Assembly (NCBI RefSeq): GCF_009914755.1
Contig: NC_060936.1
Reading direction: 5' to 3' (one strand)
Length of the DNA stretch: 64,000 nucleotides
From: the human T2T-CHM13v2.0 reference genome, Homo sapiens
Part shown: piece after piece, positions 10,201-51,175 of the stretch
Numbering within the stretch: the stretch's first letter is position 1
Layout: each line of letters begins with the position of its first letter
Made by a program: the position numbers and the translations under genes
Notes under the pieces: generated by a model
The model's database searches: none
Told to the model about the DNA's origin: nothing
What the model saw: the letters and a program-made list of their open reading frames with translations, nothing else

Positions 10201-13200
10201 ACGGGGGGCAGCCCAAAGTGGCAGGAAGGCTTGGAAAGTGAGGTCGAGGCACCTGTTTGATGAGGAAGGAAAAAAATACAGCACGACAGAGGTCCCCCCA
10301 CAGGCGAAAGTGCCTCCAAACTGCACATGCGCAGATCCCAGGGGATCCTTGGCGTTTCTGGTTCATGCCCACGGTGTGTCTCAGGCCCACGGGGGGCAGC
10401 CTAAAGCGGCACGAAAGCTTGAAAGGGGAGGTCGAAGCACCTGTGTGATGAGGAAGGAAAACAAAACGGCGCAGCAGAGGTCCCTCCACGGGCGAACGTG
10501 CCTCTCAACTGCTCATGCGTGGGGCCCAGGGGATCCTGGACATACTTGCTTTGCTCCCATGGAGCATTTCAGGCCCACAGGGGGCAGCCCAAAGCGTCAG
10601 GAAGGCTTGAAAAAGGAGGTCAGGTCACCTGTGTGGTTGGAAGGAAAAAAAAAATGGCGCGGCCGAGGTCCCCTCCACAGCCAAAGTGATTCCCAACTGC
10701 ACATGTCTGGGGCCCAGGGGATCCTGGACCTCCGTGGTTTGTGCCCACAGGGCATCTCGGGCCCCCCAGGAGAAGCGTAAAGCGGCAGGAAGGCTTGAAA
10801 GGGGAGGTCGAGGCACCTGTGTATTCTGGAAGGAAAACAAATGTCGTGGCCGAGGTCCCCCGAACAGGCAAAAGCGCCCATCATCCGCGCATGTGCTGGT
10901 CCCAGAGGATGCTGGGGTTCCCTGTTTTGTGCCCACGGAGCACCTCCGGCCCAAGTGTTGCAGCCCAAAATGGCAGGAAATCTTGAAAGGGGAGGTCGAG
11001 GCACCTGTGTGGTGTGGACGGAAATAAAATGGTGTGTCAGAAGTCTCCCCACGGGCAAAAGTACCCCCCAAGAGTGCATGCGTGGGGCCAGGGGATAATG
11101 GGTATACCAGTCTTGTGCTCACATAGCATCTCAGGGCCACAGGAGGCAGCCCAAAGCGGCAGGAAGCCTTGAAATGGGAAGTCGAGGCACCTTTGTGGTT
11201 TGAAAGGAAAAAAACACGGCACGGCAGAGGTCCCTGCCAAGGGCGAAAGTGCCTCCCAACCACTCATGCGAGGGTCCCAGGGGATCCTCGGCATCCCTGA
11301 TTCACGCTTACAGGGCATCACGGGCCCACAGGGGGCAGCTCAAAGCGACAGGAAGGCTTGAAATGGGAGGTCGAGGCACCGTTTGTTGTGGAAGGAAAAA
11401 AAATGTCGTGGCATGGGTACCCACCAAAGGCGATAGTTCTCACCCGCACATGCGTGGGGCCCAGGAGATCCAGAACATCCCTGGTTCATGCCTACAGAGC
11501 ATCTTGGGCCCACAGTGGGCAGCCCAAAGAGGAAGCCTTGAAATTGGAGGTCAAGGCACCTGAGTGTTGTGGAAGGATAAAAAAACGGAGCCGCCGAGGT
11601 CCCCACAACAGGTGAAAGTGCCTCCCAACCGCGCATTCACTGCACCCACGGGATTGTGGGAATCCCTGGTTCTGGCCCAAGGAGCATCTCAGGCCCAAGG
11701 CGAACAGCCCCAAGCGGCAGGAAGGCTTGAAAGGTGAGGTCGAGGCACCTATGTTGTGTGGAAGGACAAAAAAAGGTGCACCACAGTTCCCCCAATGGGC
11801 GTAACTCCTCCCAACCGCACATATGTGGGACCCCGAGGATCCTGGCCGTCCCTAGTTGGTGCCCACAGAGCATCTTGGGCCCACGGGTGGCAGCCCAAAG
11901 CGGCAGGAAGGCTTGAAAGGGGAGGATGAGGCACTTGTGTGATATGTGAGGAATAAAAACGCAGTGGCAGAGGTCCCCCCATGGGAGAAAGTGCCTCCCA
12001 ACCACGGATGCGTGGGACCCACGGGATCCTGGGCATCCCTGCTTCATGCCCACAGAGTGTCTCAGGCCTACGGAGGACAGCTTAAAACGGTAGTAAGGCT
12101 TCAAAGGGGAAGTCGAGACACCTATGTGGTATGGAGGGACAAAATAAGTCGCGGCAGAGGTCCCACCCACGGGCGAAAGTGCCACCCAACCGTGCATGCA
12201 TGGAGCCCTGGGGATCCTGGGCATATCTGGTTCATGCCCACGGAACATCTTGTGCCCACGGGGTCCAGCTCAAAGCGGCAGGAATTCTTGAAAGTGGAGG
12301 TGCAGGCTCCAGTGTTGTCAAAGGAAAACACGAAGAGCGAGGTAGGGTTCCCCCAACACGGGTGAAAGTGCCTCCCCACCACACATGTGCGGGGCCCAGG
12401 GGACTCTGGGCGTCCCTGATCCATGCCCAAGGAGTGCCTTGGGCCCACGGGGTCCAGCCCAAGGTGGCAGGAAACCTTGAAAGGGGAGGTGCAGGCACGT
12501 GTGTTGTGGAAGGAAAACACAAACAGCGAGGCAGAGGTTAACCCCTCGGGTGGAAGTGCCTACCCATCACGCATGTGCAGGACCCAGGGGACCCTGGGCA
12601 TCCCTGGTTCATGTCCACAGAGAGCCTCAGCCCATGGGGGCCAGCCCAAGGTGGCAGGAAAGCTTGAAAGGGGAGGTGGAGGCACCTGTGGTGTGGAAGG
12701 AAATCGCAAATGGCGTGGCAGATGTCCCCAACCACTGGCGAAAGTGCCACCCCATCATGCATGCATGGGGCCCAGGGGACCCTGGGCATCCCTGGTTTGC
12801 ACCCACAGAGCACCTCAGGCTCAGCGGGGCCTCCTCAAGGAAGGCTTGAAAGGGGAGGTCGAGGCACCTGTTGTGTGGAAGGAAAACACAAATGGCGCAG
12901 CAAAGTTACCCCCCACGGGAGAAAGTGCCTCCCCACCACGCATGCACAGGGCCCAGGGGACCTGCGCATACATGGATCTCGCCCACGGAGTGCCTTGGGC
13001 CCAAGGGGCCAGCCTGAGGCAGCAGGAAGTCTTGAAAGGGGTGTTGGAGGCACCTGTGTTGTGGAAGTAAAACACAAAGGGCAAGGCAGAGGTCCCCCCT
13101 CCATGGGCGAAAGTGCCTTTCCTCCACACATGTGCAGGGCCCAGAAGGCCATGGGCTTCCCTGGATCACAGCCACAGAGTGCCCCAGTCCCACGGGGCCA

Positions 13201-13618
13201 GCCCAAGTTGGCAGGAAGCCTTGAAATGGGAGGTCGAGGCACTTGTGTTGTGGTAGATAAACACAAAAGGCGAGGCAGAGGTCCCCCACCACGAGTGAAA
13301 GTGCATTCACACCGCGCATGTGCAGGGCCCAGGGGACCCTGTACTTCCCTGATTCATGTCCTTGGACTGCCTTGGGCCCACAGAGGACAGCCAAAGGCGG
13401 CAGGAAGGCTTGAAAGGGGAGGTGGAAGCACCTGTGCTATGGAAGGGAAACAAAAACGGCGAGGCAGTTGTCCCCCACAATGGGCAGAAGTGAATCCTCA
13501 CCACGCATAGGTGGGGCCCAGTGGAACCGCAAAAGGTAAAAGTGCCTTCCCACCTCACATACACAGGGACAAACGGACCCTGGGCATCCCTAATTTATGC
13601 CCAAGGAGTGCCCCAGCC
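1231..13618. repeat. GC-rich gamma-satellite-like tandem array, ~188-bp unit, ~65 copies (GSAT/GSATII family likely)
   Basis: Motif cttgaaaggggaggtcgaggcacctgtgtggtgtggaaggaaaaaaa recurs at ~188-bp spacing (e.g. ~2921, 3108, 3296, 5160, 5349, 5537, 13031, 13220, 13409). GC-rich and flanked by alpha satellite, the known context of gamma satellite. Exact family not verified. Confidence 0.85.
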
Positions 13619-13863
13619 CACTGCTTTTGTAGAACCTGGGGAGGGATATTTGGGAGTGCATTGAGGCCTACGATGAAAAAGAAAATATCTTCAGATAAAA
13701 ACTAGAAAGAAGATTTCAGATAACCTGCTTAGTAACATGTGCATTAATCTCACAGAGTTACAACTTTCTTTTGATTGAGCAGTTTGAAAACACTGTTTCT
13801 GTAGAATCTGCAAAGGGATGTTTCAGAGTACAATGAGGCCTATGGTGAAAAAGGAAATATCTT
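13619..13863. repeat. Alpha satellite (~1.4 monomers) between the gamma array and L1
   Basis: actgcttttgtagaacc...gaggcctatggtgaaaaaggaaatatctt. Confidence 0.95.
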
Positions 13864-13906
13864 TTATTTTATTTTATTTTATTATTTTATTTTATTTTAT
13901 TTTTTT
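13862..13906. repeat. (TTTTA)n microsatellite derived from the L1 poly(A) tail
   Basis: ttttattttattttattttatta... directly abutting the TSD. Confidence 0.9.
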
Positions 13907-14226
13907 CACATTTAGTATGTGCTTTAATAATATTTTATAGTTTCTTTCATAGTGTTGTTATAAATCTTGTTTGACATTTATTTCTGTAGATTTATATATA
14001 TACATATTTTTATTTTATTATTATTATACTTTAAGTTTTAGAGTACATGTGCACAATGCGCAGGTTAGTTACATATGTATACATGTGCCATGTTGGTGTG
14101 CTGCACCCATTAACTCGTCATTTAACATTAGGTATATCTCCTAAAGCTATCCCTCCCCCCTCCCTCCACCCCACAACAGTCCCCGAGTGTGATGTTCCCC
14201 TTCTTGCGTCCATGTGTTCTCATTGT

Positions 14227-18053
<3,827 letters not shown>

Positions 18054-18116
18054 TATGATGTTTGCTGGTTATTTTGCCCGTTAGTTGATGCAGTTACTTC
18101 CTAGCCTCGATGGTCT

Positions 18117-19125
18117 TTACAATTTGGCATGATTTTGCAGTGGCTGATACCAGTTTTTCCTTTCCGTGTTTAGTGCTTCCTTCAGGACCTCCTTTAGGAC
18201 AGGCCTGGTGGTGACAAAATCTCTCAGCATTTGCTTGTTTGTAAAGTATATTATTTCTCCTTCACTTATGAAGCTTAGTTTGGCTGGATATGAAATTCTG
18301 GGTTGAAAATTCTTTTCTTTAAGAATGTTGAATATCGACCCCCACTCTCTTCTGGCTTGTAGAGTTTCTGCCAAGAGATCCACTGTTAGTCTGATGGGCT
18401 TCTTTGTGGTAACTCGACCTTTCTCTCTGGCTGCCCTTAACATTTTTTCCCTTCATTTCAACTTGATGAATCTGACAATTATGTGTCTTGGAGTTGCTCT
18501 TCTCAAGGAGTATCTTTGTGGCATTCTCTGTATTTCCTGAATCTGAATGTTGGCCTGCCTTGCTAGATTGGGGCAGTTCTCCTGGATAATATCCTGCAGA
18601 GTGTTTTCCAACTTGGTTCCATTCTCCCCATCACTTTCAGGTACACCAATCAGACATAGATTTGGTCTTTTCACATAGTCCCATATTTCTTGGAGGCTTT
18701 GTTCATTTCTTTTTATTCTTTTTTTTTTCTCTAACCTTCCTTTCTCGCTTCATTTCATCTTCCATCACTGATACCCTTTCTTCCAGTTGATGGCATCAAC
18801 TCCTGAGGCTTCTGCCTTCTTCACGTAGTTCTCGAGCCTTGGCTTTCAGCTCCATCAGCTCCTTTAAGCAGTTCTCTGTATGGGTTATTCTAGTTATACA
18901 TTTATCTAAATTTTTTTCAAAGTTTTCAGCTTCTTTGGCTTTGGTTTGAATTTCCTCCTGTAGCTTGGAGTAGTTTGATCCTCTGAAGCCTCATTCTCTC
19001 AACTCATCAAAGTCATTCTCCATCCAGTTTTGTTCCATTGCTGGTGAGGAGCTGCATTCCTTTGGAGGAGGAGAGATGCTCCCCTTTTTAGAGTTTCCAG
19101 TTTTTCTACACTGTTTTTTCCCCAT
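18117..19125 (-). pseudogene. L1 ORF1 remnant, disrupted
   Basis: ATG at 19123-19125; fragments KRPNLCLIGVPESDGENG and MLRAAREKG...QNHAKL lie in separate ORFs. Confidence 0.92.
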
Positions 19126-20154
19126 CTTTGTGGTTTTATCTACTTTTGGTCTTTGATGATGGTGATGTACAGATGGGTTTTTGGTGTGGATGTCCTTTCT
19201 GTTTGTTAGTTTTCCTTCTAACAGACAGGACCCTCAGCTGCAGGTCTGTTGGAGTTTGCTAGAGGTCCACTCCAGACCCTGTTTGCCTAGGTACCAGCAG
19301 CGGTGGCTGCAGAACAGCGGATTTTCGTGAACCGTGAATTCTGCTGTCTGATCATTCCTCTGGAAGTCTTTTCTCAGAGGAGTACCCGGCCGTGTGAGGT
19401 GTCAGTCAGCCCCTACTTGGGGGGTGCCTCCCAGTTAGGCTGCTCGGGGCTCAGGGGTCAGGGACCCACTTGAGGAGGCAGTCTGCCCATTCTCAGATCT
19501 CCAGCTGCATGCTGGGAGAACAACTGCTCTCTTCAAAGCTGCAGACTCTGCTCTCTTCAAAGTCTGCAGAGGTTACTGCTGTCTTTTTGTCTGTGCCCTG
19601 CCCCCAGAGGTGGAGCCTACAGAGGCAGGCAGGCCTCCTTGAGTTGTGGTTTACTCCACCAAGTTGGAGCTTCCCCGCTGCTTTGTTTACCTAAGCAAGC
19701 CTAGGAAATGGCTAGCGACCCTCCCCCATCCTCACTGCTGCCTTGCAGCTTGTACTCAGACTGCTGTGCTAGCAATCAGTGAGACTCTGTGGGTATAGGA
19801 CCCTCTGAGCCATGTGCAGGATATAATCTCCTGGTGCACTGTTTTTTAAGCCCATCAAAAAAGCACAGTATTAGGGTGGGAGTGACCCGATTTTCCAGGT
19901 GCCATCTGTCACCCCTTTATTTGACTAGGAAAGGGAATTCCCTGACCCCTTGCACTTCCCAAGTGAGGCAATGCCTCGCCCTGCTTCGGCTCATACATGG
20001 TGCGCTGCACCCACTGCCCTGCACCCACTGTCTGGCACTCCCTAGTGAGATGAACCTGGTACCTCAGATGGAAATGCGGAAATCACCTGTCTTCTGCTTT
20101 GCTCACGCTGGGAGCTGTAGATTGGAGCTGTTCCTATTCAGCCATCTTGGCTCC
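19126..20154 (-). promoter_or_regulatory. L1 5'UTR internal promoter (YY1-site end; CpG-decayed)
   Basis: Reverse complement begins ggagccaagatggc; the 5'UTR is recognisable throughout. Confidence 0.85.
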
Positions 20155-20158
20155 AGCA

Positions 20159-23100
20159 GTGAAAAAGGAAATATCTTAAGATAAAAACTAGAAAGAAGCT
20201 TTCTGGGAGACTGCTTTGTGATGTGTGCATTCATCTCACAAAGGTAAATCTCTTTTGATGGAGCAGTTTGGAAACACTGTTTTTGTAGAATCCACAAAAG
20301 GATATTTGGGAGGGCATTGACGCCTATGGTGAAAAGAAAATCACTTCAGATTAAAAATAGAAAGAAGCTTTATTAGAAACTGCATTGCAATGTGTGGATT
20401 CATCTCACAGAGTTAAACATTGTTTGGATTGAGCAGTTTGGAAACAATGTTTTTGTAGAATCTCGGAAGGGATATTTGGAGCACATTGAGGTCTATTGTG
20501 AAAAAGGAAACATCTGCAGGTAAAAACTAGAAAGAAGCTTTCTGAGAAACTTCCCTGTGATGAGGGCATTCGTCTCACAGAGTTACACATTTCATTGAGC
20601 AGTTTGGAAACACTGTTTTTGTACAATCTGTGAAGGGATATTTAGGAGTGCATTGAGGCCTATGGTGAAAAAGGAAATAGCCTCAAATAAAAACTAGAAG
20701 GAAGCTTTCTGAGACACTGCTTTCTGACAGGAGCATTCCTCTCACAGCATTATAGCTTTCTTTTGATTGAGATATACGGAAACACTGTTTTTGCAGAATC
20801 TGGGAAGGGATATTTGGCAGTGCATAGAGGCCTGGGGCGAAAAAGGAAATATCTTCACATAAAAACTAGAAAGAAGTTTGTGAGAAACTGTTTTGTGATG
20901 TGTGCATTCATATCACAATGTTGAACCTTTCTTTTGATTGAGCAGTTTGGAAAGGCTATTTTTGTAGAATCTATGAAGTGATATTTGGGAGCACATTGAG
21001 GCATCTGCTGAAAAATGATATACAGATAAAAACTAGTAAAAAGCGTTATGAGAAACTGCTTTGTGATATGTGCATTCATTTCATAGAGTTAAACATTTCT
21101 GTTGGTTGAGCAGTGTGGAAACACTGTTTTTGTAGAATCTGGGAAGGGATATTTGGGAGCGCATTGAGGCCTATGGTGAAAAAGGGAATATCCTCAGATA
21201 AAAACTAGAAAGATGTTCTCTGAGAAATTGTTTTTTGATATGTGCATTCATCTCACAGAGTTACATCTTTCTTTTCATTGAGCTGTTTGGAAATATTGTT
21301 TTTGTGGAATCTGTAAAAGGATAATTGGGAACGCCTTAAGGCCTATGGTGAGAAAGGAAATATCTTCAGAAAAAAACTTGAAAGAAGCATTCTGAGAAAC
21401 TGCTTTGTGATGTGCACTTTCATCTCAAAGTGTTAAACCTTTCTTTTGATTGAGCAGCTTAGAAACACTTTTTTTGTAGAATCTGTGAAGGGATATGTGG
21501 GAGTGCATTGAGGCCTATGTTGAAAAAGGAAATGTGCTCATATAAACATTAGAAAGAAGATTTCTGAGAAACTCCTTTGGATGTGTGCACTCATCTCACT
21601 GATTGAAACCTTTCTTTTCATTGAGCAGTTTGGAAACACTGTTTTTGTAGAATCTGAGAAGGGATATTTGGGAGCACATTTGAGGCCTGTGGTGAAAAAG
21701 GAAATATATTCAGATGAAAACTAGAAAGAAGCTTTCTGAGATACTGCTTTGTCATGTGTGCATTCCTCTCACAGATTTAAACATTTCTTTTGATTGAGCA
21801 GATTAGAAACACTGTTTTTGTGGAAACTCTCATGGAATATTTGAGAGCACATTGAAGTCTATGGTGATAAATGAAATATCTTCAGATAAAAACTAAAAAG
21901 AACCTCATGGAGACATGGGTTTGTGATGTGTGCATTCATCTCACGTTAAACCTTCTTTTGATTGAGTAGTTTGGAATCACTGTTTTTGTAAAGTCTGCAA
22001 AGGAATATTTGGGAGCACAGGGAAATTTGGGAATGCTCTAAGTCCTGTGCTGAAAAAGGAAGTATTCTCGAAAAAAAATAGAAAGAAACTTTCTGAGAAA
22101 CTGCTTTGTGATGTGTAAATTCAACTCACAGAGTTAAACCTTTCTTTTGATTGAGCAGTTTGGAAACACTGTTTTTGTAGAATCCACAAAAGGATTTTTG
22201 GGAGGGCATTGAGGCCTTTGGTGAAAAAGGAAATATCTTCAAGTAAAAAATAGAAAGAAGCTTCATCAGCATTGTGATGTGTGGATTCATCTCACAGAGT
22301 TGAAACTTTGTTTTGATTGAGCGGTTTGGAAACACTGTTCTTGTAGAATCTGGGAAGGGATATTTGGGAGCACATTGAGGTCTGTGGTGAAAAAGGAAAT
22401 ATCCTCAGACAAAAACTAGAAAGAAGCTTTCTGAGAAACTGCTCTGTGATGAGGGCATTCATCTCACAGGGTTACACATTTCTTTTCATTGAGCAGTTTG
22501 GAAACACTGTTTTTGTACAATCTTCAAAGAGATATTTGAGAGTGCATTGAGGCCTATAGTGAAAAAGGAAATATCCCCAGATAAAAATTAGAAAGAAGGT
22601 TTCTGAGACACTGTTTTTGATGTGAGCATTCCTCTCACAGAGTTGAAGCTTTCTTTTGATTGAGATATACGGAAACACTGTTTTTGCAGAATCTATGAAG
22701 GGATATTTGGGAGTGCATAGAAGTCTAAGGTGAAAAAGGAAATATCTTCACATAAATACTAGAAAGCTTTGTGAGAAACTGCTTTGTGATGTATGCATTC
22801 ATATCGCAGTGTTGAATCTTTCTTTTGATTGAGCAGTTTGGAAAAACTTTTTCTAGAATCTATGAAAGGATATTTGAGAGCACATAGAGCCATATGGTAA
22901 ACAGGAAATATCTTCAGATAAAAACTAGAATGAAGTTTTATGAGAAACTGCTTTGTGATATGTGCATTCACTTCTTAGAGTTAAACCTTTCTTTTGATTG
23001 AGCAGTTTGAAAACACTGTTTTTGTAGAATCTGGGAAAGGATATTTGGGAGTGCATTGAGGCCTAAGGCAGAAAAGGAAATATCCTCAGATAAAAACGAG

Positions 23101-25119
23101 AAAGAAGCTTTCTGAGAAACTAGTTTTTGATATGTGCATTCATCTCAAAGAGTTTCACCTTTCTTTTGATTGACCAATTTTTGAACCTTGTTTTTGTACA
23201 ATCTGTGAAGAGATATTTGGGAACACCTTGAGGCCTATGGTGAAAAAGGTAACATCTTCATATAAAAACTAGAAAGAAGCTTTCTGAAAAACTGCTTTGT
23301 GATGTGTGCATTTATCTCATACAGTTGCACCTTTCTTTTCATTGAGCAGTTTGGAAACACTGTTTTTATAGAATCTGTGAAAGGATATTTGGGAGTGCAT
23401 TGAGGCCTACGGTGAAAGAGGAAATAACCTCAGACAAAAACTAGAAAGAAGCTTTCTGAGAAACTGCTCTGTGATGAGGGCATTCATCTCACAGAGTTAC
23501 ACATTTCTTTTCATTGAGCAGTTTGGAAACAGTGTTTTTGTACAATCTGCGAAGAGATATTTGAGAGTGCATTGAGGCCTATGGTGAAAAAGGAAATATC
23601 TTCAGATAAAAACTAGAAAGAAGCTTTCTCACATATTGCTTTGTGATGTGGTCATTCATCTCACAGAGTTAAACCAGTCTTTTGATTCTAGAGTTTGGAA
23701 ACACTCTTTTTGAAGAATCTGCAAAGACATATTTGGGAGTGCGTTGAGGCCTCTGGTGAAAAAGTAAATATCTTAAGGTAAAAACTAGAGAGAAACTTTC
23801 TGAGAAATGACTTGTGATGTGTGCATTCATCTTACAATTAAAACTTTCTTTTGATTCAGCCATTTGGAAACACTGTTTTTGTAGAATCTGCCAAGTGTTA
23901 TTTCAGATATCTTTGAGGCCTATAGTGAAAAGGGAAATATCTTCAGATAAATACTAGAAAGAAGTTTTGAGAAACTGCTTTTTGATGTGTGCATTCATCT
24001 CAATGAGATAAAACTTTGCTTTGATTGAGCAGTTTTGAAATACTGTTTTTGTAGAATCTGCAAAGGGATAATTGGGAGCACATTAAGGCTTATTGTGCAA
24101 AAGGAAATATCTTCAGATAAAAACTAGAAAGAAGCCTTCTGAGAAACCACTTTGTGATGTGTGCATTCATCTCACACTGTTAAACCTTTCCTTTGATTGA
24201 GCAGTTTGGAAACACTGTTTTTGTAGAATCTGCAAACGGATATTTGGGAATGCATTCAGGCCAATGGTGAAAAAGGAAATATGCTCAGATAAAAACTAGA
24301 AAGAAGGTTTCTGAAAAACTGCATTTTGATGAGTGCATTCATATCACAGAGTTAAATCTTTCTTTTAATGTAGCAGTGTGGCAACACTGTTTTTGTAGAA
24401 TCTGTGAAGGGATATTTTGGAGCGCATTGAGGCATATGGTGAAAAAGGAAATACCTTCAGATAAAAACTAACAGAAGCTTTCTGAGAAACTGTTTTGTGA
24501 TGAGTGCATCCATCTCACAGAGTTAAACGTTTATTTTGATTGAGCAGCTTGGAAACTGTTTCTGTAGAATCTGTGAAGAGACATCTGGGAGCCCTTTGAG
24601 GCCTATGGTGAAAAAGGAAATATCTTCAGATAAAAACTGGAAAGAAACTTTCAGAGAAAGTGCTTTGTGATGTTTGCATTCATATCACAGAGTTAAAACT
24701 TTCTTTTGATTGAGCAGTTTGGGACACTGTTTTTGTAGAATCTGGGAAGGGATATTTGGGGACATATTGAGGCCTATGGTGAAAAAGGAAATATCCCCAG
24801 ATAATAACTAGAAATAAGCTTTCTTAGAAACTGTTTTGTGTTGTGTGCATTCATCTCACAGCATTAAGGCTGTTTTTTGATTGAGCAGTTTGGAAACACA
24901 GTTTTTGTAGAATCTGTGAAGGGATATTTGGGAGCGCATTGAGACCTATGGGGAAAAATGAAATATCTTCAGATAAAAACTAGAAAGAAGCTTTCTGAGA
25001 AACTCCTTTGTGATGTCTGCATTCACCTGACAGTTAAACCTTTATTTTGATTGAGCAGTTTGGAAACACTGCTTTTGTAGAATCTGCCAAGGGATACTTG
25101 GGAGCACATTGAGGCCTAC
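20159..25119. repeat. Monomeric alpha satellite (~29 monomers)
   Basis: 171-bp periodicity with pJalpha-type boxes. Confidence 0.97.
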
Positions 25120-26033
25120 TGAAGGGGCCATCCCCTCCTCACATGTGGGTGTTTCTCATCCGGTGGTAAGAGAGACTGAGAAAAGAAATAAGACACAGAG
25201 ACAAAGTATAGAAAAAGAACATGGGCCCAGGGGACAGGAGCTTAGCATACAGAGGACCTGTGCCTGCACTGGTCTCTGAGTTCCCTCATTATTTATTGAT
25301 CACTATCTCTACCATCTCAGACAGGGGGTTGAGGGTATAGGGTAATGATGGGGAAATGTTCAGCATGAAAACATGTGAGCAAAGATCTCTGTGTCATAAA
25401 TAAGTTTAAGGAAACGGGCTGTGACTTGATGGGCATGTAGGCCAGATTTATGTTTGACTTTACACAAACATCTCAGTGCCTTAAAGAGCAGTATTGCCAC
25501 CAGCATGTCTCACCTCCAGCCATAAGGCGGTTTTCTGCTATCTCAGTAAACAGAACATACAACCGGGTTTTACACCGAGACATTCCATTCTCAGGGATGA
25601 GCAGGAAACAGATGCCTTCCACTTATCTCTATTGTAAAGAAGCCTTCCTCTTTCACTATTCCTTCTCATCACAGACCATTTATGGGTGCCAGGCTAGGGG
25701 ATGGTCAGGTCTTTCCCTTCCCACAAGGCCATATCTCAGGTGTTCATATGGGGAGAAACCTTGGAGATTACCTGGCTTTCCTGGAGAGAGGTCCCTGTGG
25801 CCTGCCTTCAAGCACTTTTTTAACAAAGCATATCCTGCACAGACCTAAATCCATTAAACCATGTGTCAACACATCACGTGTCTCTGCAAGCACAGGTTGG
25901 GGCTAGGGTTACAGATTAACAGCATCTCAAGGCAGGAGAATTTCTCTTAGTGTGGAACAAAATGGAGTTTCTTATGTCTACTACTTTCTACATAGACACA
26001 GTAACAGTCTGATCACTCTCTCATTTCCCCATA
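25120..26033 (-). mobile_element. 3' LTR (old LTR5A/5B-like), ~914 bp
   Basis: Reverse complement starts tatggggaaatgagagagtgatcagactgttactgtgtct and ends ccccttca; AATAAA at 25292-25297; about 68 bp shorter than the 5' LTR near 25802. Confidence 0.93.
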
Positions 26034-26051
26034 TTTCCCCCTTTTCTTTTC
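26034..26051 (-). other. Polypurine tract
   Basis: gaaaagaaaagggggaaa immediately upstream of the 3' LTR. Confidence 0.88.
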
Positions 26052-26807
26052 GACAATACCACCATCATCATCATGGCCTGTTCTCAATGGTTGCTGTCAC
26101 TTCAGAGCTGCTGGGTACACCTGTAGACTAACAACCGACAGAACAGGCACACAAAGATTAATATGAAATTTACAATAGTAGAACTTCCAATGGTCTTAAC
26201 CCAAGTGACAGGGTTAAGATTTGTGTGGCCATCAGCAACTCCTGCGATTGCCTCAGTTCCTGGTACCAAATTTAAATGAGTTTTTGATGCTTTGAAAACT
26301 TGTTCTTTTAATTTGGAAATGTCTAAAGTGAGATTATCTTCTCTTCCCTGTAGATGGTCTTTAGCCATGTCCCAGTGATGCTCAGACTCATTATAAACTC
26401 GGGGTGTAATACAAAATCTGATGTATTCCAGTCACACTATAACTGGAAACTATGTTCTAAGCTCATGAGCGTATCTCCTATCCAAATGACCATTTGTCTA
26501 AGCTCATTAATTTGATTTGCCAATTTTTGATCAATACCAGATTGTGAATTCCACAGTCTTGTAGAATTTTTTTTGACAATTATTAATAAAGTTTACTGTC
26601 TGAACAGAAGAGTGCAATGCAACTCCTACCACAGCAGCCATAGTTGTGACTGCAATTAATCCCATAATCACTGCAATTAAAGTAAAAATGAACCTTTTGG
26701 ATCTATTTAGATTGCCTTTTAATACTTCAGTCAAAATATGGATGGATGGCAAGGCCTCCCACGGTCAGTCCAGGGACACAGGGATCCACAATCCTGGGTC
26801 CACAATC

Positions 26808-27218
26808 CTGCTCAATCAAAAGAAAAGTTTAAATCTGTGAGATGAGTGCACACATCACAGAGCAGTTTCTCAGAAATCTTCTTTCTAATGTTTATCTGAG
26901 CACATTTCCTTTTTCACCATAAGCCTCAATGTGATCCCACACATCCCTTCACAGATTCTACATAATAGTGTTTCTAAGCTGCTCAATCAAAACAAAGGTT
27001 TAACAGTTTGAGATGAAAATGCATATCACAAAGCAGTTTCTCAGAATGCTTCTTTCAAGTTTTTTCTGAAGATATTTCCTTTTTCACCATAGGCCTTAAG
27101 GCCTTCCCTATTATCCCTTTGCAGATTCCACAAAAACAATATTTCCAAACTGCTCAATGAAAAGAAAGATGTAACTCTGTGAGATGAATGCACACATCAA
27201 AAAGCAATTTCTCAGAGA
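26808..27218 (-). repeat. Inverted alpha-satellite insert (~2.4 monomers) inside env
   Basis: ctgctcaatcaaaagaaaag...cagtttctcagaa is reverse-complement alpha; the only alpha segment in this orientation in the window. Confidence 0.96.
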
Positions 27219-28211
27219 GCCTTTTCTTGCTCTCACTAGCAGAATACAGTGCTGCCAATTAACAGTCGAATCAATGCAATTTAACAATCTGCAATTTTCA
27301 CAGGTTATAGTTTGCGAGTCTGGTTTAATGAATATATTTCCTACAACTAGCATATAAGGGGGCTTTCAAAACTTTTTAAAGGAACTGTTAGACTGGAATT
27401 TAGGGCGATAGTATAAAATGGCTTGTGATCTTTTTTTCTATAGCTTGATATCCAAACCAAATTCTAATGCGGTATGAGGCCACAGTAAGCCTCCTTAATT
27501 CTGATGTTCAGGGCCAGAAACAAGGCTTAGTATTTGTTGTCTTGGAGTAGAGATTCCTTTTTGTCACCATTCCCAATGGCAGAAAGACTATAATTTTTTG
27601 TGCTTATGTTTGTCCAAACTTTCTATTAAGTCACTATTAACAGCTGGACTCACTTGTGCACTGGGACACGACTGGGTTTGTCTTGTGCAATTGTGGCAGA
27701 ATTGACCTCGAGGTGCCCAGTCTATAATAATTCCAAATTCATTGTTCCATAATATCATCACACTATTGGCCACACTTTCTTGCCAAACTAAAACTTCTGT
27801 ACTTTTGATCTTTTGGGAATTTCCTTGGGGCAAGGTTTCCCTTTAGGCCTAAATTTTAATGATCTTTGATAAGAAAAGTCCTTTAAATAATTTACTTGTG
27901 GCTTGAGTGGCATTCCACTTACCATGTGATAAGTTAATCTACTGGTGGTACTGACAGTAGGTTCTTCTACCAACCAATTTTGGATTGCAGGCATTAAACA
28001 TCCTGGTGCTCTCCCTAAGCACATAGGAGGATAACGATGCCCAGTGGAAATATTTATCATCATTCCTTCTTCCTCAGGTTTGGGAGGGCAACGATCACCT
28101 GTGGGGACAGGTACACATGCACTATTATTAACATATACTTCAATAGGATTATCCATCCGTGTGATGGCCCAAATTAAGGGTGGGAAAGGCTCATAGGCCC
28201 AGTAGGTATAA

Positions 28212-31060
28212 TTAGCTGCAGCGGCTCCTGCAGACATGGGGAGACTTACCATCGTGGATACAATCATCAAAGCTGCAAGGAGAATATTCTCTGGAGTTTG
28301 TATCACCTTTGTGTTCTCTAGGCTTTTTTTTTAGCTAACTGTGTCAGCTTCTTTAATTGTGCCCAAGTCAGCAGCTCCGCTTTCTTGGTGGATGGCAACT
28401 TCATCTGTTCTTCTGACATCACCATTTTGTTCATCTTGTGAGTCAATGGTGCTCGATTGTGGTGTTTCCATCTCTGTGGAGGCTCTTTTCTTTGCATCCC
28501 CGATGGGTTCATTGTAGAGCTTCAAATGTCTAGTGGGTATCCAAACAGAAAGCTGATCTTCTCCTGGTGAAACACAAGCAAAACCTCTCCCCCACGTTAC
28601 CACCTCCTCTATTTCCCACGTCTTATTTTTGTTTTCTTTCCACCAAATCAGTTTTTCTTCATGTGGGCTGTTCTTTTTATCAGTAAGATGCTGTCCTGCA
28701 GGGGTAGTAGTCTGATTTCTATAAATGTTTAAAAAACTTACAGTATAGAGTGCTAGATTAAGTTGCATCTGAGTAGTGGAACACTCCTTACTGTCTGCCC
28801 CTTCTTTTTGTTTAACCAATTGAGTTTTGCGTGTTCCATTTGTTCTTTTAATTATGGCCTGCCCTTGGGAATTATACAGAATTCCTCTGGTACGTGTAAT
28901 TTTCCACTGATTTAAGAATTTTAGGAAAGCTGTACTACAGTCCTGGTCCCTTGTCAGTTTTAATTTTTTTGGAACTCCCATGACAGCAAAACAAGATAAG
29001 AAATGTTTTTTTAACATGGGAAGTACTTTCTCCTGTCTGGCATGTTGCCCATATGAAATGTGAATAAGTATCAACTCTTACATGGACACATGATAATCTT
29101 TCAAATGAAGGTACATGCGTGACATCCATTTGCCATAACACATTAGGACACAGACCTCTGGGATTAACTCGTGCCTCTTGAGTGGGCAAGTGTAGGACTT
29201 GACACTGGATGCAATGCTGTACAATACTTTTTGCCTGTTTCCATGTGACATCAAATTTGTTTTTTAATCCTGCTGCATTTACTTGAGTCAAAGCATGAAG
29301 TTCTTGTGCTTTTAAGAATGCAGATGATACCAGTAAGACAGCTTGTTCATTTGCTTTAGTTAAAGGCCCTGGTAAATTAGTGTGTACTCAAATATGAGCA
29401 ATATAAAATGAGAAATTTCTTTTTCTTACAGTTTGTTGTAATAAATTGGACAGCCGGTTTAACTGATCTTGCACGCTATATTTAATTAGAGCTGTCTCAA
29501 CATCCCTTGTAGCCTGTACTACATAGGCAAAATCTGATACAATATTAATAGGTTGATTAAAATCTTGTAACACTGTAATGACTGCAACCAACTTTGCTCT
29601 TTGAGCCGATTGATAGTGAGGTTTGATGACTCGCTCTTTTGGCTCTGTGTAATCTGCTTTTCCATTGCTGGAACAATCAGTAAACACTGTCAGAGCATTT
29701 TCTAGAGGTTTATGTCTGGTAATTTGGGGTAAAATCAAAGTAGTCAATTTTAAAAACTGGAAGATTTTTGTTTTTGTTTAATGATTTTCAATAATTCCCA
29801 CAAAGTTAGCAAGACCGATCTGCCATGCACCACAATTGATAAAACTTCTCTAACTTGTTCCTTGTTTAAAGGAACAACTATTTTGTCTGGATCATTTCCA
29901 CACAATTTTATTATTTGTAATCTTTCCTGACCAATTAATGTAGCTATTTGATCCAAGTACAATGTAAAAGTCTTAATTGTACTGTGAGGAAGGAATGACC
30001 ACTCCACAAGATCAGTGTTTTGAATAATGATGCCTGTTGAAGAAGATGCAGTAGCAAAAATCAAATGTTGGTGTGGGGCTAAGGGATCTATTCTATTTAT
30101 TTGTTCTGACAGAATATTTTCTTTCACTAATTTAATTTCTTTTGTTGCCTCTGTGGTTAATATTCTTTTACTATTTAAGTCAGGGTCTCCTCTTAACATA
30201 GAGAACAAATTTGACATGGCATAAGTAGGAATGCCTAGAGTTGACCGAATCCAATTAATGTCTCCTAGCAATTTTTGAAAGTCATTTTTAATGTGTCTTT
30301 TCTTATCTCTATTTTTTGTGGCTTAGTTTTTCTATTTTCTGTCTACATCCCAAATAATGAAAAGCAGTAGATGTTTGAATCTTATCAGATGCTATTGCCA
30401 GTCCTGCGTTGGCAACCTCTGCTTGCAGAAATGTGTAAGAGTCAATTTGTCTCTCGTTTCTGCAGCACACAAAATATCATCAACATAATGAATGATGTAA
30501 CAGTCTGAAAACTTGTCTCTGGTTGAAGAGCTTGACCTATGGAAGTCTGACAAATAGTTGGAGCATTAAGCATTCTCTGAGGTAACACTTTCCAGTGAAA
30601 CCTGGTGGCTTGTTTTTTATTATTTATGGCTGGTATAGTAAAGGGAAATTTTTCAAAATCCTGCTCCGCCAGAGGAATGGTAAAAAAGTAATCCTTCAGA
30701 TCAATTATAATTAAAGACCAGTCTTTTGGGATCATGGCCGGAGAATGCAACCCGGGTTGGAGAGGGCCCATGGGTTGAATTGTGGCATTTACGTCCCTTA
30801 AGTCAGTTAACATACGCCATCTACCGGATTTTTTCTGAATTAAAAACACAGGAAAATTCCAAGGTGAGAATGAAGGCTCAATATGTCCCTTTTCTAATTG
30901 TTCTTTTGCTAATAAATGTAAAGCCTCTAGTTTTTGTTTTGGTAGTGACCACCAATTTACCCATACCGGTTTTTCTGTTTTCCAAGTTAATGGAATTGGT
31001 TTAGGAGGCTCTATGGTGGCCACCCCTAAAAAGGAAACCGTATTCATTTTCTCTCTTGAT
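28212..31060 (-). pseudogene. pol: HML-2 pol remnant (RT, RNase H, integrase)
   Basis: [25 protein letters not shown] near 30480, RNase H VFTD, integrase CxxC and WQMDVTH; many frameshifts. Boundaries approximate. Confidence 0.92.
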
Positions 31061-32030
31061 TTCCCTCAGCCTCAATTGGGACCTTAATGCCACTTTCATT
31101 TTTTCCTAGTCCCTTTCCTGGTACATATCCCATTTTAGTCTTGATTTTTTAACTCGTGGGGCAGTATAATGGAGTGGGCATAGTGATTTCTGCACCCCAT
31201 TTTTGTAATAAATCTCGACCCCACAGACTAACAGGAATTGAGGTAATCATTTGCTGAACAGTATTTTCTTGATTATCCAGCCCTAAACAATGTAAAATCA
31301 TAGTACTTTGATATACCTCTGAGAAAGTGCCTATGCCAACAAGTCCTGTAACAGCCTTTTGTTTAGGCCAATTTTTTGGCCACTGATTTAAAAATGATAG
31401 AGACATCTGCCCCCGTGTCTACTAACCCTTCAAACTGTTTTCCTTGAATAACGGCCTTACACCCAGGTCTGCTCTCTGAGACTTGACTTGCCCAATATGC
31501 AGTCTTTCCTGCTGGATCACTGCTTCCAAACCCTCCTGTTCTTTTTATCTCACTGTTTCCAACCTTAATATTAGGCAGGAGTAATAATTGAGCAATTCTG
31601 TCTCCTGGACTGGCACTCCAAGGAATTGAGGAGCTAATAACCAATTGAATTTTGCCTTTGTAGTTTGAATCAACCACACCAGTACGAATTTGAACTCTCT
31701 TTAGATTTAGACTTGATCTTCCTAAGATTAGTCCTACAGTCCCTTTAGGCAGTGGGCCATACACCCCTGTAAGGATTTCTTATGGGGGCTCCCCTGGAAG
31801 CAGAGAGACTGCTTGTATATACATAAATCCGCTGCACTGCCACTTGTGGCAGGGGACATTTGTTGTATTGTGGTAACTGGCCCTTTCCCTGAGGCACTAG
31901 TGACAGTGGGGTTTGTTGTCCCTGAAAACCCTGAGGAACAAAGGGCTGAATTGGGAATGTCCCAGTTTGTTGCAGGGCCTGAGGGTGGCCCCTCTTCTCG
32001 TTTCCTGACAATGGTTGTCTATTTTTATCA
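31026..32030 (-). pseudogene. pro: HML-2 pro remnant (dUTPase + aspartyl protease)
   Basis: GRSS, GVVDSNYKG, RIAQLL, RTGGFGS (dUTPase); LVDTGAD and WGRDLL (protease); frameshifted. Start approximate. Confidence 0.92.
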
Positions 32031-33654
32031 AACTTAGAACGACATTGATTAGCTCAATGTTTGCCTTTTTTACATCTGGGACATAGGCCAGGTGGCTCTT
32101 TATCTGTTGTTGCAGTGGCTTGAGTTGTTATATTTTGTTCATTTGAGACTGGGCAATTTTTTTTTAGATGACCAATTTGACCACGATTATAACATTTTCC
32201 CCCAAATGTTCTAACTTGTCCTCCTAAAACAACTCCCATTATTGCTTGAGCCATAAGCATAGCTTTATGCATAGCTCCTCCAATTCCATCACAGGCTTTT
32301 ACCTACTCTGAGATTACATCTGATCCTGCCGTGAACTTCCATTTTAATGCCTTAATGGCTGATTGACAATCAGGATTGGCATTTTCATATGCCATCGACT
32401 CCACTATGAACTTACAGGCATTTTCATCAGGAATTGACCTTTGAGCAGCATCTTGGAGTCTTGCCACAAAATCAGGATAGGGCTCTTTATAGCTTTATCT
32501 TATTCTATTGAATCAGGGGCAGGTGGTTTCTGGGCCTTGGATTTTTTTCCAGGCCCTAAGGCAGATAGCTTTAACTTGCTCAATGGCCTCATTTTGCATT
32601 ACTGCTTGTTGATTAGTAGTGTAACAATTTTGACCTGTTCCTAATAGTTGATCTGCATCTATGTTAACTGGAGGATTGGCAGCCCTATTTTTTCGGACTT
32701 GTTCTTGAGCCCCATCAATCCACCAAGTCTTATGTTGTAAAATTTGCGAGGGTGAGAGTGATGATTTGGCCAAAATCTGCCAATCATAAGGAATGAGTCT
32801 ATGTCCATAAGCAATGGAATCTAATAATGTTCTCATATAAAGGTATAGCGCTATTCCCTGTGGTACTGGAAACATTCCTGGCTGTCCATACTGATTTTCT
32901 GGGGGTGGCCAATACTGAAGTTTGGCTGGTGGCCAGTATTGATAGGCCACCAGAGGTTGGGTCTTATTTTTTATCAGCTGATATTGTGGACACTGTATTT
33001 GGATTGGCATTGCCATGACAGAGACTCTATCTTTTTTTATTTGGTATTCTTTTGGGGTTTGTACTTGTCTAACCTGCATTTGGTGTTGTAATGTTACAGA
33101 CATCTGAACTGCTGGAAGAGGAGTTGGTCATCGTGGTTTAGACTCTGATGGTCCCATTAATTCTGTACCTTTTTCTTCTAATTTTAATGTTTTAGGATAT
33201 ATTACCTCCTGTAGTTGATTGTAGTCAACACCTTGCGTTGACTGAGCCATTACATACTCTGCTACATATTTACAATGTGAACTTTCCATTCCTTTCCAGG
33301 ATTCTGTCCCTGCCTCTCCTTCACAATCTATTACACAGCTTTCAGGGGTATCAGAAACTGAAAAGCTATCTTCTCCTATTTGAAAAGGTTCTAAAGCTGC
33401 TTTAATAATGGACCAATCATTCCATACTGTAAGTGGGATGATTTTACCCTCCTTATTTTCTTGTTTTAATTCTATGCCAATTTTTTCCCAATCTTTTATA
33501 TCTAAAAGTCCCTGTTCTGGAAGCAATGGGCAGAATTGTTCTATTGTTTCAAATAGTGTGATTAGGTTTTCTGTAGAGACTCTAACTCCCCCTCTTTTTA
33601 AAAGAATTTCAATAAAGCTAGATAAAAGGAATATTTACTGTCAGTTTGTACCAT
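31828..33654 (-). pseudogene. gag: HML-2 gag remnant with internal deletion
   Basis: ATG at 33652-33654; MA (PEQG.LD.KDW), CA (YMRTLLDSIAYG) and NC zinc knuckles (CYNRGQIGH, CPRCKKGKH); frameshifts. Confidence 0.92.
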
Positions 33655-33782
33655 TGTTACCCTGGGTTGCTCTGAGCACACACAATCTTACCACAAGGCT
33701 GACTGTGGACTTACTCGGGAATGTCTCTTCTACTTGTCCTCAATGACCATGCTCTAGCGTAACTTCAACCTAGAGAAAAGCA

Positions 33783-33800
33783 CCCTCGTTGGGCACAAGA
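33783..33800 (-). other. Primer binding site (tRNA-Lys type, degenerate)
   Basis: tcttgtgcccaacgaggg directly after the 5' LTR, resembling HML-2 tctggtgcccaacgtgg. Confidence 0.85.
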
Positions 33801-34784
33801 TGACGGGGGACAGCCCCTCCACACCAGTGGATGTTTCTCATCTGGTAGGATGAGAGACTGAGAAAAGAAATAAGACACAGAGACAAAGTGTAGAGAAAGA
33901 ACAGTGGGGCCAGGGGACTGGCACTCAGCACAGGGAGGACCCACGCCTTCACTGGCCTCTCAGCTCCCTTAGTATATATTGATCACTATCTTTACCATTT
34001 CATAGAGGGGGATGTGGCAGGACTATAGGGTAATAGTAGGGAGAGATTCAGTAGGAAAACATGTGAGCAAAGATCTCTGTGTCAAAAATAAGTTTAAGGA
34101 AAAGTTGTGCCTTGATGTGCACATAGGCCAGATTTATGTTTGACTCTACACAAACATCTCGGTGCATTAAAGAGCAGTACTGCTGCCACCATGTCTCACC
34201 TCCAGCCATAAGGCCATTCTCCCCTTTCTCAGTAAATAGAACTGGCAATCGGGTTTTACACCAAGAGATTCCATTCCCAGGGACGAGAAGGAGACAGATG
34301 CCTTCCTCTTATCTCAACTGCAAAGAAATCTTCCACTTTCACTAATTCTCCTCAGCACAGATCATTTACAGGTGTCGGGCTGGGGAATAGACAGGTCTTT
34401 CCCTCCCATGAGGCCATACCTCAGGCTATCACATGGGGAGAAACCTTGGACAATACCCGGCTTTCCTGGGCAGAGGTCCCTGCAGGTTTCTGCAGTGCAT
34501 TCTGTCCCTGGCTACTCGAGATTAGAGAATGGTAATGACTTTTACCAAGCATAGTGCATTCAAACACATTTTCAACAAAGCACATCCTGCACAGCCCTAA
34601 ATCCATTAAACCTTGAGTCAACACACCACATGCCTATGTGGGCACAGGGTTGGGGCTAGGGTTAGAGATTAACAGCATCTCAAGGCAGAAGAAATTCTCT
34701 TGGTACAGAACAAAATAGAGTTTCTTTTATCTAATTCCTTCTACATAGACACAGTAACAATCTGATCTCTCTTTCTTTTCCACA
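33801..34784 (-). mobile_element. 5' LTR (old LTR5A/5B-like), ~984 bp
   Basis: Reverse complement starts tgtggaaaagaaagagagatcagattgttactgtgtct and ends ccccgtca; poly(A) signal decayed to AATATA. Confidence 0.93.
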
Positions 34785-35001
34785 TAGAGCAGTTTGGAAA
34801 TACCATGTAGAATCTGCAAAGGGATATTTGGGATTTCATTGAGGCCTATGGTGAAAAAGGAAATATCTTCACAGAAAAACTAGAAAGAAGCTTTCTGAGA
34901 AACTGCTCTGTGTTGGGTGAATTCACCTAACAGAATTAAACATTTCCTTTCATGGAGCAGTTTGGAAACACTGTTTATGTAGAATCTGTAAAGGGATATT
35001 T
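34785..35001. repeat. Alpha satellite fragment between the provirus and L1
   Basis: gagcagtttggaaa...gaggcctatggtgaaaaagg...gggatattt. Confidence 0.93.
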
Positions 35002-45043
<10,042 letters not shown>

Positions 45044-50951: not shown

Positions 50952-51175
50952 ACAGTGAGAATACATGGACACTGGAAGGGGAACAGCACACAGTGGGGCC
51001 AGTTTTGGGGTCTGGGGAGGGGGGAGGTATAGCATTAGGAGATATACCTAACGTTAAATGATGAGTTAATGGGTGCAGCACACCAACATGGCACATGTAT
51101 ACACGTGTAACTAACCTGAACGTTTTGCACATGTACCCTAAATCTTAAAGTATAATAAAAAAAATTAAAAAAAAT

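What the first reader, a model, noticed from the sequence alone, without database searches (positions are those of the whole stretch)
26785..27222. Inverted alpha-satellite patch inside HERV-K env, apparently copied from a donor 5 kb away, with a stuttered junction
Seen: env is split at gggatccaca|gccttttcttgc with about 1 bp lost. The insert (26808-27218) is the reverse complement of 21217-21628 and shares its private variants (ttacatctttc, aaatattg, gtggaat, ggataat, ccttaaggcc, gaaaaaaacttgaaagaagcatt, gcttagaaac, aatgtgctca, aaacattagaaagaagattt, gcactcatc). I count ~29 differences in ~411 bp (~93%), visibly closer than ordinary neighbouring monomers. The left junction has a 12-bp tandem repeat, tccacaatcctg (26785-26796 and 26799-26810). 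There is no poly(A) and no TSD. Inference: a double-strand break in the provirus was repaired by templated insertion or template switching (Pol theta-type or MMBIR/SDSA) from a nearby alpha donor. This would be a fossil of how satellite seeds into foreign DNA and makes local inversions.
Basis: partly seen in the sequence, partly recalled or inferred. Interest (0 to 1): 0.8.

Follow-up and report, generated by a model that had tools for sequence, protein, structure and literature searches.

The report
Nearby satellite copied into old provirus
A 411-base piece of centromeric alpha satellite was copied, upside down, from 5 kb away into the envelope gene of an old, already catalogued endogenous retrovirus, leaving a scar typical of sloppy DNA-break repair: a clean example of a known kind of mutation.

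Summary
The provirus is the catalogued HERV-K(HML-2) 12p11.1 (K50e), on the minus strand at 25120-34784. Its env carries 428 extra bases (26791-27218): a 17-base filler plus 411 bases of alpha satellite in the opposite orientation to all other alpha in the window. One env base is lost, judged against 11 of 11 other HML-2 copies. There is no target-site duplication and no poly(A).

The patch is 92.7% identical to the reverse complement of 21217-21628. The next best match is 84%, both in the window and genome-wide (capped search). The 30 differences split evenly between the two copies (13 vs 12 polarised), which fits one copying event followed by neutral decay (K2P 0.069, roughly 15-30 My). The 12-base stutter is exact and occurs nowhere else in the window.

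Best reading: a break in env was patched by synthesis templated on the nearby alpha array, then closed by end joining. A cDNA or DNA-fragment patch is not excluded.

The kind is known: class 2 templated-sequence insertions, and short alpha repeats embedded in ERVs, L1 and Alu. What is unusual is a traceable donor in cis, which argues against a circular-DNA route for this case. I found only this clear case in 264 kb. Interest is modest.

The parts
25120..34784 (-). HERV-K(HML-2) provirus 12p11.1 (K50e), 9,665 bp including the insert. Order on the minus strand: 5' LTR, gag, pro, pol, env, 3' LTR.
   Evidence: Pfam hits on minus-strand ORFs are collinear: Gag_p24, RVT_1, IN_DBD_C, HERV-K_env_2 and HERV-K_REC. 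LTR termini were read directly. The identity with 12p11.1/K50e rests on the table in PMC3228705.
25120..26031 (-). 3' LTR
   Evidence: Aligns to 33806-34786 at 83-85%. K2P is 0.189.
33802..34784 (-). 5' LTR
   Evidence: A primer-binding-site-like sequence lies just inside it (read; the motif itself is recalled).
26781..26790 (.). Last env bases on the left of the break (gggatccaca).
   Evidence: 39 of 39 other HML-2 copies stop aligning at 26788-26790. 11 of 11 junctions were printed.
26791..26807 (.). 17-nt filler (atcctgggtccacaatc), which is neither env nor alpha.
   Evidence: Absent from 11 of 11 empty sites and not aligned to the donor. No other template for it exists in the window.
26785..26796 (.). 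First copy of the 12-nt stutter tccacaatcctg (6 nt of env plus 6 nt of filler).
26799..26810 (.). Second copy of the 12-nt stutter (9 nt of filler plus the first 3 nt of the alpha copy).
26808..27218 (-). 411-bp alpha-satellite copy (2.4 monomers), inverted relative to all other alpha in the window.
27219..27230 (.). First env bases on the right of the break (gccttttcttgc). The right junction is blunt, with no microhomology.
21217..21628 (+). Donor (or its direct descendant), inside the alpha block 20159-25118 that abuts the 3' LTR. It lies 5.2 kb from the insert.
   Evidence: 92.7% identity. It is the best genome-wide hit. The donor region itself has no paralogue above 84%. It sits in uninterrupted alpha, so it was not excised.

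Best explanation
After the HML-2 provirus had integrated beside, or within, monomeric alpha satellite on 12p11.1, its env gene suffered a break between ...tccaca and cgcc....

The left 3' end looped back to the alpha array 5 kb away on the same chromatid (or the sister). It primed next to a near-match: the donor reads tccaaa where env ends tccaca. It then copied 411 nt of the opposite strand, which explains the inverted orientation.

The left junction went through abortive or slipped rounds of synthesis. These left a 17-nt filler and a 12-nt direct repeat. The free end of the new strand was then joined bluntly to the right env end, with loss of one base.

In short, this is a synthesis-dependent, DNA-templated insertion closed by end joining (a hybrid of SD-MMEJ/TMEJ-like priming with SDSA- or MMBIR-like extension). 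The event is old, roughly 15-30 My.

Shown: the copy, its donor, its orientation, the exact junctions, the 1-bp loss, the absence of TSD and poly(A), the intact donor, and equal decay of the two copies. Inferred: that a break started it, that the template was DNA, which end primed, and which enzymes acted.
For: The donor is identified at 92.7%, against 84% or less for everything else in the window and genome-wide.

Three consecutive donor monomers match three consecutive insert monomers collinearly.

The donor still lies in continuous alpha, so this was a copy and not a cut.

The empty site is defined by 11 of 11 paralogous env copies. It shows a 1-bp loss, no TSD and a site that is not TTTT/A.

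The exact 12-nt direct repeat spans the left junction and is unique in the window. Direct repeats spanning a junction are the product described for loop-out SD-MMEJ (PMC2943611, passages read).

The six donor bases just upstream of the copy start match the env end in 5 of 6 positions (read). My hand calculation gives p about 0.005 for a fixed position, and less weight once the several places I looked at are counted.

Differences are split 13 donor-derived against 12 insert-derived.

A donor only 5 kb away, among tens of Mb of alpha, requires a mechanism that depends on proximity.
Against: The right junction has no microhomology, which is not what MMBIR or TMEJ predicts for the second join.

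The 3 nt 'atc' present in both stutter copies have no template in the present donor or in env.

411 nt is longer than typical Pol-theta templated inserts (recalled, not checked).

Experimental class 2 templated insertions of the same size and with the same junction features were attributed to RNA-derived patches (PMC5110952, passages read).

The first monomer alone is only 90% identical to the donor, against 88% for an unrelated chr19 monomer.

Genome-wide searches scored only 13-40 of several thousand first-look candidates, so they are not exhaustive.
Confidence: 0.6

Rival explanations
1. RNA-derived patch (class 2 templated-sequence insertion). A transcript of the neighbouring alpha array was reverse-transcribed, or used directly as template, and the product patched a break in env by non-homologous end joining.
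For: All junction features fit class 2 TSIs as described in PMC5110952: no TSD, no poly(A), a microdeletion, non-templated nucleotides and an unexcised donor. The reported size range is 73-414 bp, and this insert is 411 bp.
Against: Donors in that system mapped to 18 of 24 chromosomes without preference. Here the donor is 5 kb away in cis, which requires the extra assumption of a nascent local transcript. The near-match (5 of 6) at the priming site and the stutter are more natural for primer-template synthesis on DNA. Nothing in the sequence marks an RNA origin.
Confidence: 0.15
2. Capture of a pre-existing DNA fragment. A linear alpha fragment or a small extrachromosomal circle, released from the neighbouring array (or the sister chromatid), was ligated into the break.
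For: [quoted passage not shown] The blunt right junction fits simple ligation.
Against: The insert is 2.4 monomers long, not a whole number, and it is collinear with the donor end to end with no circle junction or permutation. There is no 2-10 bp duplication flanking the insert, as that model predicts. The donor is intact. The templated-looking stutter is not explained.
Confidence: 0.12
3. 21217-21628 is not the donor but only a surviving paralogue. The real donor is elsewhere, unscored, or has been lost.
For: Genome-wide searches scored only 40 of 7021, 13 of 8598, 40 of 3946 and 40 of 3304 candidates. Only one haplotype was searched. The first monomer is only 2-3 points closer to the donor than to a chr19 monomer.
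Against: Over the whole 411 bp there is a 9-point gap to the next hit, in the window and genome-wide. The donor region has no paralogue above 84%. The even 13:12 split of derived changes is what a direct donor-copy pair gives.
Confidence: 0.08

Closest known systems
Class 2 templated-sequence insertions (TSI/TSIP; Onozawa and Aplan, review PMC5110952, passages read)
   Same: An insert of a few hundred bp copied from elsewhere in the genome into a break. No TSD, no poly(A), a microdeletion, extra nucleotides at the junction and an unexcised donor. The reported size range of 73-414 bp includes 411 bp.
   Different: The donor is 5 kb away in cis and inverted, not on a distant chromosome. The template is satellite DNA. 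The event is ancient; population frequency was not examined. An RNA origin, which those authors favour, is not shown here.
[quoted passage not shown] 2020, PMC7719264, section 16 and table passages read)
   Same: 0.3-4 monomers of alpha inserted into a transposable element that was already there, including ERV internal regions. Each is a unique locus that is not spread further.
   Different: Those are euchromatic, with 2-10 bp duplications at most sites and no specific donor named in the parts I read. This one is pericentromeric, has no flanking duplication, has a one-sided 12-nt stutter, and has an identifiable donor. Its 2.4-monomer collinear copy does not fit their eccDNA model.
SD-MMEJ / polymerase-theta-type templated junction insertions (Yu and McVey 2010, PMC2943611, passages read; PMC7165422, abstract only)
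   Same: A direct repeat spanning the repair junction, plus a short filler built from copies of nearby sequence.
   Different: Those inserts are short and copied from within tens of bases of the break. Here a 411-nt tract from 5 kb away is attached as well.
Replicative template switching (FoSTeS/MMBIR) and fold-back inverted duplications (PMC3907307, search listing and abstract only)
   Same: A nearby template used in inverted orientation, giving a complex junction.
   Different: There is no microhomology at the second junction and no larger copy-number change. Replication dependence cannot be tested.

Membership tests
Class 2 templated-sequence insertion | No target-site duplication, no poly(A) tract | tested here: met
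   Empty site from 11 of 11 paralogous env copies, and the insert ends read directly.
Class 2 templated-sequence insertion | End-joining features at the junctions (microdeletion, extra nucleotides) | tested here: met
   1 bp lost and a 17-nt filler.
Class 2 templated-sequence insertion | Donor copied, not excised | tested here: met
   The donor lies in uninterrupted alpha, 20159-25118.
Class 2 templated-sequence insertion | Donor in a distant genomic region; RNA intermediate | tested here: not met
   The donor is 5.2 kb away in cis. An RNA origin cannot be tested with these tools.
Dispersed alpha repeat embedded in a transposable element (Feliciello 2020) | Short alpha tract (0.3-4 monomers) inside an element that pre-existed at the site | tested here: met
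   2.4 monomers inside env. The env flanks are contiguous in 11 of 11 other copies.
Dispersed alpha repeat embedded in a transposable element (Feliciello 2020) | 2-10 bp duplication flanking the insert; euchromatic site | tested here: not met
   No flank repeat across the insert. The site is pericentromeric alpha.
eccDNA integration by short homology | A whole number of monomers and/or a circularly permuted insert | tested here: not met
   411 bp is 2.4 monomers, collinear with the donor throughout. The monomer period is about 171 bp, from the 1028-bp 6-mer.
LINE-1-mediated insertion (class 1 TSI / retrotransposition) | TSD of 5 bp or more, poly(A), TTTT/A target | tested here: not met
   None of the three is present.
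SD-MMEJ / TMEJ scar | Direct or inverted repeat spanning the junction, made of local sequence | tested here: met
   An exact 12-nt direct repeat at 26785 and 26799, unique in the window.
SD-MMEJ / TMEJ scar | Dependence on polymerase theta | not testable with these tools
   Needs genetics.
MMBIR / FoSTeS template switch | Microhomology at each switch point | tested here: inconclusive
   Left junction: 5 of 6 imperfect match (tccaca against tccaaa), but separated from the copy by the filler. Right junction: none.
HERV-K(HML-2) provirus 12p11.1 (K50e) | HML-2 gene set with paired LTRs at the published locus | tested here: met
   Pfam hits, LTR pair, and 90-94% env identity to other HML-2 copies. 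Locus, strand and length match the table in PMC3228705.

The most novel reading that the evidence does not exclude
Local, DNA-templated break repair would be a regular way in which alpha satellite colonises the transposable elements lodged in pericentromeres, instead of circular DNA or RNA patches. The inverted repeats it leaves (here 411 bp, 5.2 kb apart) would seed later inversions of the kind seen as orientation switches in alpha layers. This locus would then be the first case with donor, target and scar all preserved.
Probability: 0.12. Interest if true: 0.55.

Novelty: new member of a known kind. Interest (0 to 1): 0.3.

Why it matters
Short alpha-satellite tracts inside Alu, L1 and ERV elements have been catalogued, but in the parts I read their source and mechanism were only guessed at (eccDNA plus short homology).

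Here donor, recipient and both junctions survive. That allows the mechanism to be read for one case: a copy, not a cut; a donor in cis and close by; an inverted, non-integer monomer length; and one junction with a synthesis stutter. This argues against the circle model for this event and for proximity-dependent templated repair.

It also adds a precise structural note to a provirus that is used in HML-2 expression and Rec studies. It creates a 411-bp inverted repeat that could matter for local stability.

It does not change what is known about repair pathways or centromere evolution. A genome-wide census of such patches would be needed for that.

Tried and rejected
Retrotransposition was rejected: there is no TSD, no poly(A) and no L1-type target site.

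Later inversion of a larger block was rejected: the provirus is collinear on the minus strand on both sides of the insert.

Assembly artefact was rejected: the provirus length in hg19 matches.

The second stutter copy as a natural alpha variant was rejected. No alpha monomer in the window reads anything like cacaatcctgctcaa within 2 mismatches, and the donor state equals the usual alpha state.

Moving the right junction further right was rejected. The 12 bases after 27218 match other env copies in 11 of 12 positions but the donor in only 5 of 12 (my count).

Mutagenic synthesis near the priming end found no support. There are 17 differences in the first 173 bp against 13 in the last 238 bp (Fisher p = 0.12). 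Derived changes in that first part are 7 donor against 7 insert.

Alpha from the oppositely oriented domain upstream was rejected as donor: identity is 83% or less.

The search for further cases in 264 kb found only an 89-bp inverted alpha piece, with no donor above 86%.

Literature searches for a description of the alpha insert in 12p11.1 found none. The one supplementary file of PMC3228705 held as text has no occurrence of the terms. One search was an unproductive phrase search. These searches cover only the held library.

Full report
**What is there**

The window (T2T-CHM13 chr12:34,472,001-34,536,000) is pericentromeric. It is monomeric alpha satellite interrupted by other repeats. With the proposed donor as query, alpha lies at 1-1230, 13619-13863, 20159-25118, 34770-35001, 37212-45044 and 51174-64000, all in one orientation. 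The only alpha in the opposite orientation is 26808-27218.

Between 25120 and 34784 lies a provirus on the minus strand. Its ORFs match, collinearly, Gag_p24, RVT_1, the integrase DNA-binding domain, HERV-K_env_2 and HERV-K_REC. It has paired LTRs at 25120-26031 and 33802-34784.

Locus, strand and length identify it as HML-2 12p11.1 (K50e). It is listed in Subramanian et al. 2011 at hg19 chr12:34,772,555-34,782,217 (-), with an LTR-based age of 39-71 My and chimpanzee as the most distant species in which it was found (PMC3228705, table passage). The published span is 9,663 bp and the span here is 9,665 bp. The insert is therefore also present in that independent assembly and is not an artefact of this one.

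**Check of the observation**

BLAST of 26785-27222 against the window gives 178 HSPs.
- The best non-self hit is 26808-27218 against 21628-21217 on the minus strand: 92.7% over 413 columns, with 27 mismatches and 3 one-base gaps.
- The next best hit is 83.9%.

As a background, I cut the alpha blocks into 295 tiles of 411 bp.
- The median best non-self identity is 83.8%.
- Only 23 tiles have a partner at 89% or more. One is the donor tile. The other 22 lie in a single 6-monomer tandem duplication at 59860-62144.

The donor-insert relation is thus a clear outlier and not ordinary monomer similarity.

**Genome-wide searches**

These searches score only the best first-look candidates, so they are not exhaustive.

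| Query | Identity to donor locus | Next best | Candidates scored |
|---|---|---|---|
| Insert with flanks (26785-27222, 438 bp) | 93% | 84% (chr12 local, chr5, chr19) | 40 of 7021 |
| First monomer (170 bp) | 90% | 87-88% (chr19) | 40 of 3946 |
| Last monomer (179 bp) | 95% | 88% (chr11) | 40 of 3304 |
| 851-bp region around the donor | (self) | 84% | 13 of 8598 |

**The junctions**

A search with the env flank found 39 other HML-2 copies. All 39 stop aligning at window 26788-26790 (40 of 196 candidates scored).

I printed the site in 11 of them (all 11 that were fetched as loci). Every one reads ...gggatccaca|c|gcc(c/t)tctcttgc....

In the window, the same two flanks are separated by 428 bases (26791-27218):
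- a 17-nt filler, atcctgggtccacaatc;
- the 411-nt alpha copy.

The single c is missing. There is no duplicated flank, no A or T run at either end, and no L1-type target.

The 12-mer tccacaatcctg occurs at 26785-26796 and 26799-26810, with gg between. It occurs nowhere else in the window, even with one mismatch.
- The first copy is 6 nt of env plus 6 nt of filler.
- The second copy is 9 nt of filler plus the first 3 nt of the alpha copy.

The stutter therefore contains both env-derived and donor-derived bases, so it arose at or after the joining.

The right junction (27218|27219) is blunt. The bases after it match other env copies in 11 of 12 positions and the donor in 5 of 12 (my count).

One more detail, read: the six donor bases just upstream of the copy start are tccaaa, and env ends tccaca. 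That is a 5 of 6 match at the place where priming would have occurred. It is suggestive only.

**History of the two copies**

I polarised the 30 differing columns with 20 in-phase local alpha segments as outgroup:
- 13 changes fall on the donor;
- 12 fall on the insert;
- 3 are unresolved;
- 2 fit neither.

Both copies have decayed equally, as expected for a donor and its copy evolving neutrally. There is no excess of insert-specific changes that would indicate mutagenic synthesis. The slightly higher divergence of the first 173 bp is not significant (Fisher p = 0.12).

K2P distance between insert and donor is 0.069. Between the two LTRs it is 0.189, or 0.178 without CpG sites. With the LTR clock implied by the published age (about 0.24-0.45% per My, back-calculated by me from the ages), the copy is roughly 15-30 My old. 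That is well after the LTRs began to diverge.

The LTR age itself is suspect because the provirus has no target-site duplication. The left flank ends gcctac and the right flank starts tagagc. The two flanks are also out of phase by about 64 bp in the alpha monomer. This points to a recombinant provirus or a flank deletion.

**Mechanism**

The facts to explain are these:
- a copy, not a move;
- a donor 5.2 kb away in cis;
- inverted orientation;
- 2.4 monomers, collinear with the donor;
- a 1-bp deletion;
- one junction with a filler and a direct-repeat stutter next to a near-microhomology;
- the other junction blunt.

The reading that covers all of these is a break in env whose left 3' end folded back onto the neighbouring array. 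That end primed there after slipped or abortive attempts, copied 411 nt, was released, and was joined to the other end.

Direct repeats spanning a junction are what loop-out SD-MMEJ produces (PMC2943611, passages read). The long extension is more like SDSA or MMBIR. I put this reading at 0.6.

Rivals:
- **RNA-derived patch.** Class 2 templated-sequence insertions have exactly these junction features and this size range (73-414 bp), and they were attributed to RNA-derived patches (PMC5110952). Their donors, however, were scattered over 18 of 24 chromosomes. A donor 5 kb away needs a proximity-dependent step.
- **eccDNA.** The route proposed for dispersed alpha repeats (PMC7719264) predicts flanking 2-10 bp duplications. 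As I read the model, it also predicts whole-monomer or permuted inserts. None of these is seen.
- **Linear fragment capture.** This cannot be excluded, but it leaves the stutter unexplained.

**How general is it**

I mapped alpha orientation over 264 kb: the window plus the 200 kb upstream.
- Upstream alpha is all in the opposite orientation to the window's alpha, up to a switch at chr12:34,469,715/34,469,725, which is 2.3 kb before the window.
- Apart from the patch under study, the only short piece with the minority orientation is 89 bp at an L1/alpha boundary (chr12:34,313,887-34,313,975). It has no donor above 86%.

The centromere side could not be fetched. One clear case in 264 kb does not support a claim of a frequent process.

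**What is known, and the verdict**

The provirus is catalogued. Short alpha tracts inside ERVs, L1 and Alu are catalogued (PMC7719264). Break repair by templated patches is described (PMC5110952).

In the held library I found no paper that mentions the alpha insert in 12p11.1. A 2025 paper lists 12p11.1 among loci with a full-length Rec sequence (PMC12724133, one figure-legend passage). From recalled HML-2 splicing, the insert would lie in the rec intron. I did not test this.

It is a new, unusually legible member of a known kind and not a new kind.

Noticed in passing
window 1231-13618: A 12-kb GC-rich tandem array with a 188-bp unit (376-bp dimer), about 58 copies at 69-72% matches, abutting alpha on both sides. 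It has many long spurious ORFs and no Pfam hit for the one ORF tested. It may be a gamma-satellite-type repeat (recalled, not tested).
   Followed up: partly
window 25113-25119 and 34785-34790: The 12p11.1 provirus has no target-site duplication (left flank gcctac, right flank tagagc). Its alpha flanks are about 64 bp out of monomer phase. Its LTRs differ by K2P 0.19. Together these suggest a recombinant of two proviruses or a flank deletion, and they would explain the implausibly old published LTR age.
   Followed up: partly
window 59860-62144: A 6-monomer (1,028-bp) tandem duplication at 90-97% identity, inside alpha that is otherwise about 84% identical between monomers. It is the only other high-identity pair among the 295 tiles.
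   Followed up: no
L040:7715-7725 (chr12:34,469,715-34,469,725, 2.3 kb upstream of the window): A head-to-head switch of alpha orientation. About 185 kb of upstream alpha runs opposite to all alpha of the window.
   Followed up: partly
L025:1887-1975 (chr12:34,313,887-34,313,975): An 89-bp alpha piece in inverted orientation, exactly at the boundary between an L1 fragment and an alpha block. No local donor exceeds 86%. It may be an older or different junction event.
   Followed up: partly
window 13864-20158 and 35002-37211: LINE-like fragments interrupt the alpha. ORFs with RVT_1 lie at 15015-16217 (-) and 36535-37218 (+). The second follows a (tta)n run at about 35010-35045.
   Followed up: no
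window 21217-21628 with 26808-27218: Donor and copy now form a 411-bp inverted repeat at 93% identity. It brackets 5.2 kb that includes the 3' LTR and the 3' part of env, so it is a potential substrate for inversion polymorphism. This was not examined in other haplotypes.
   Followed up: no
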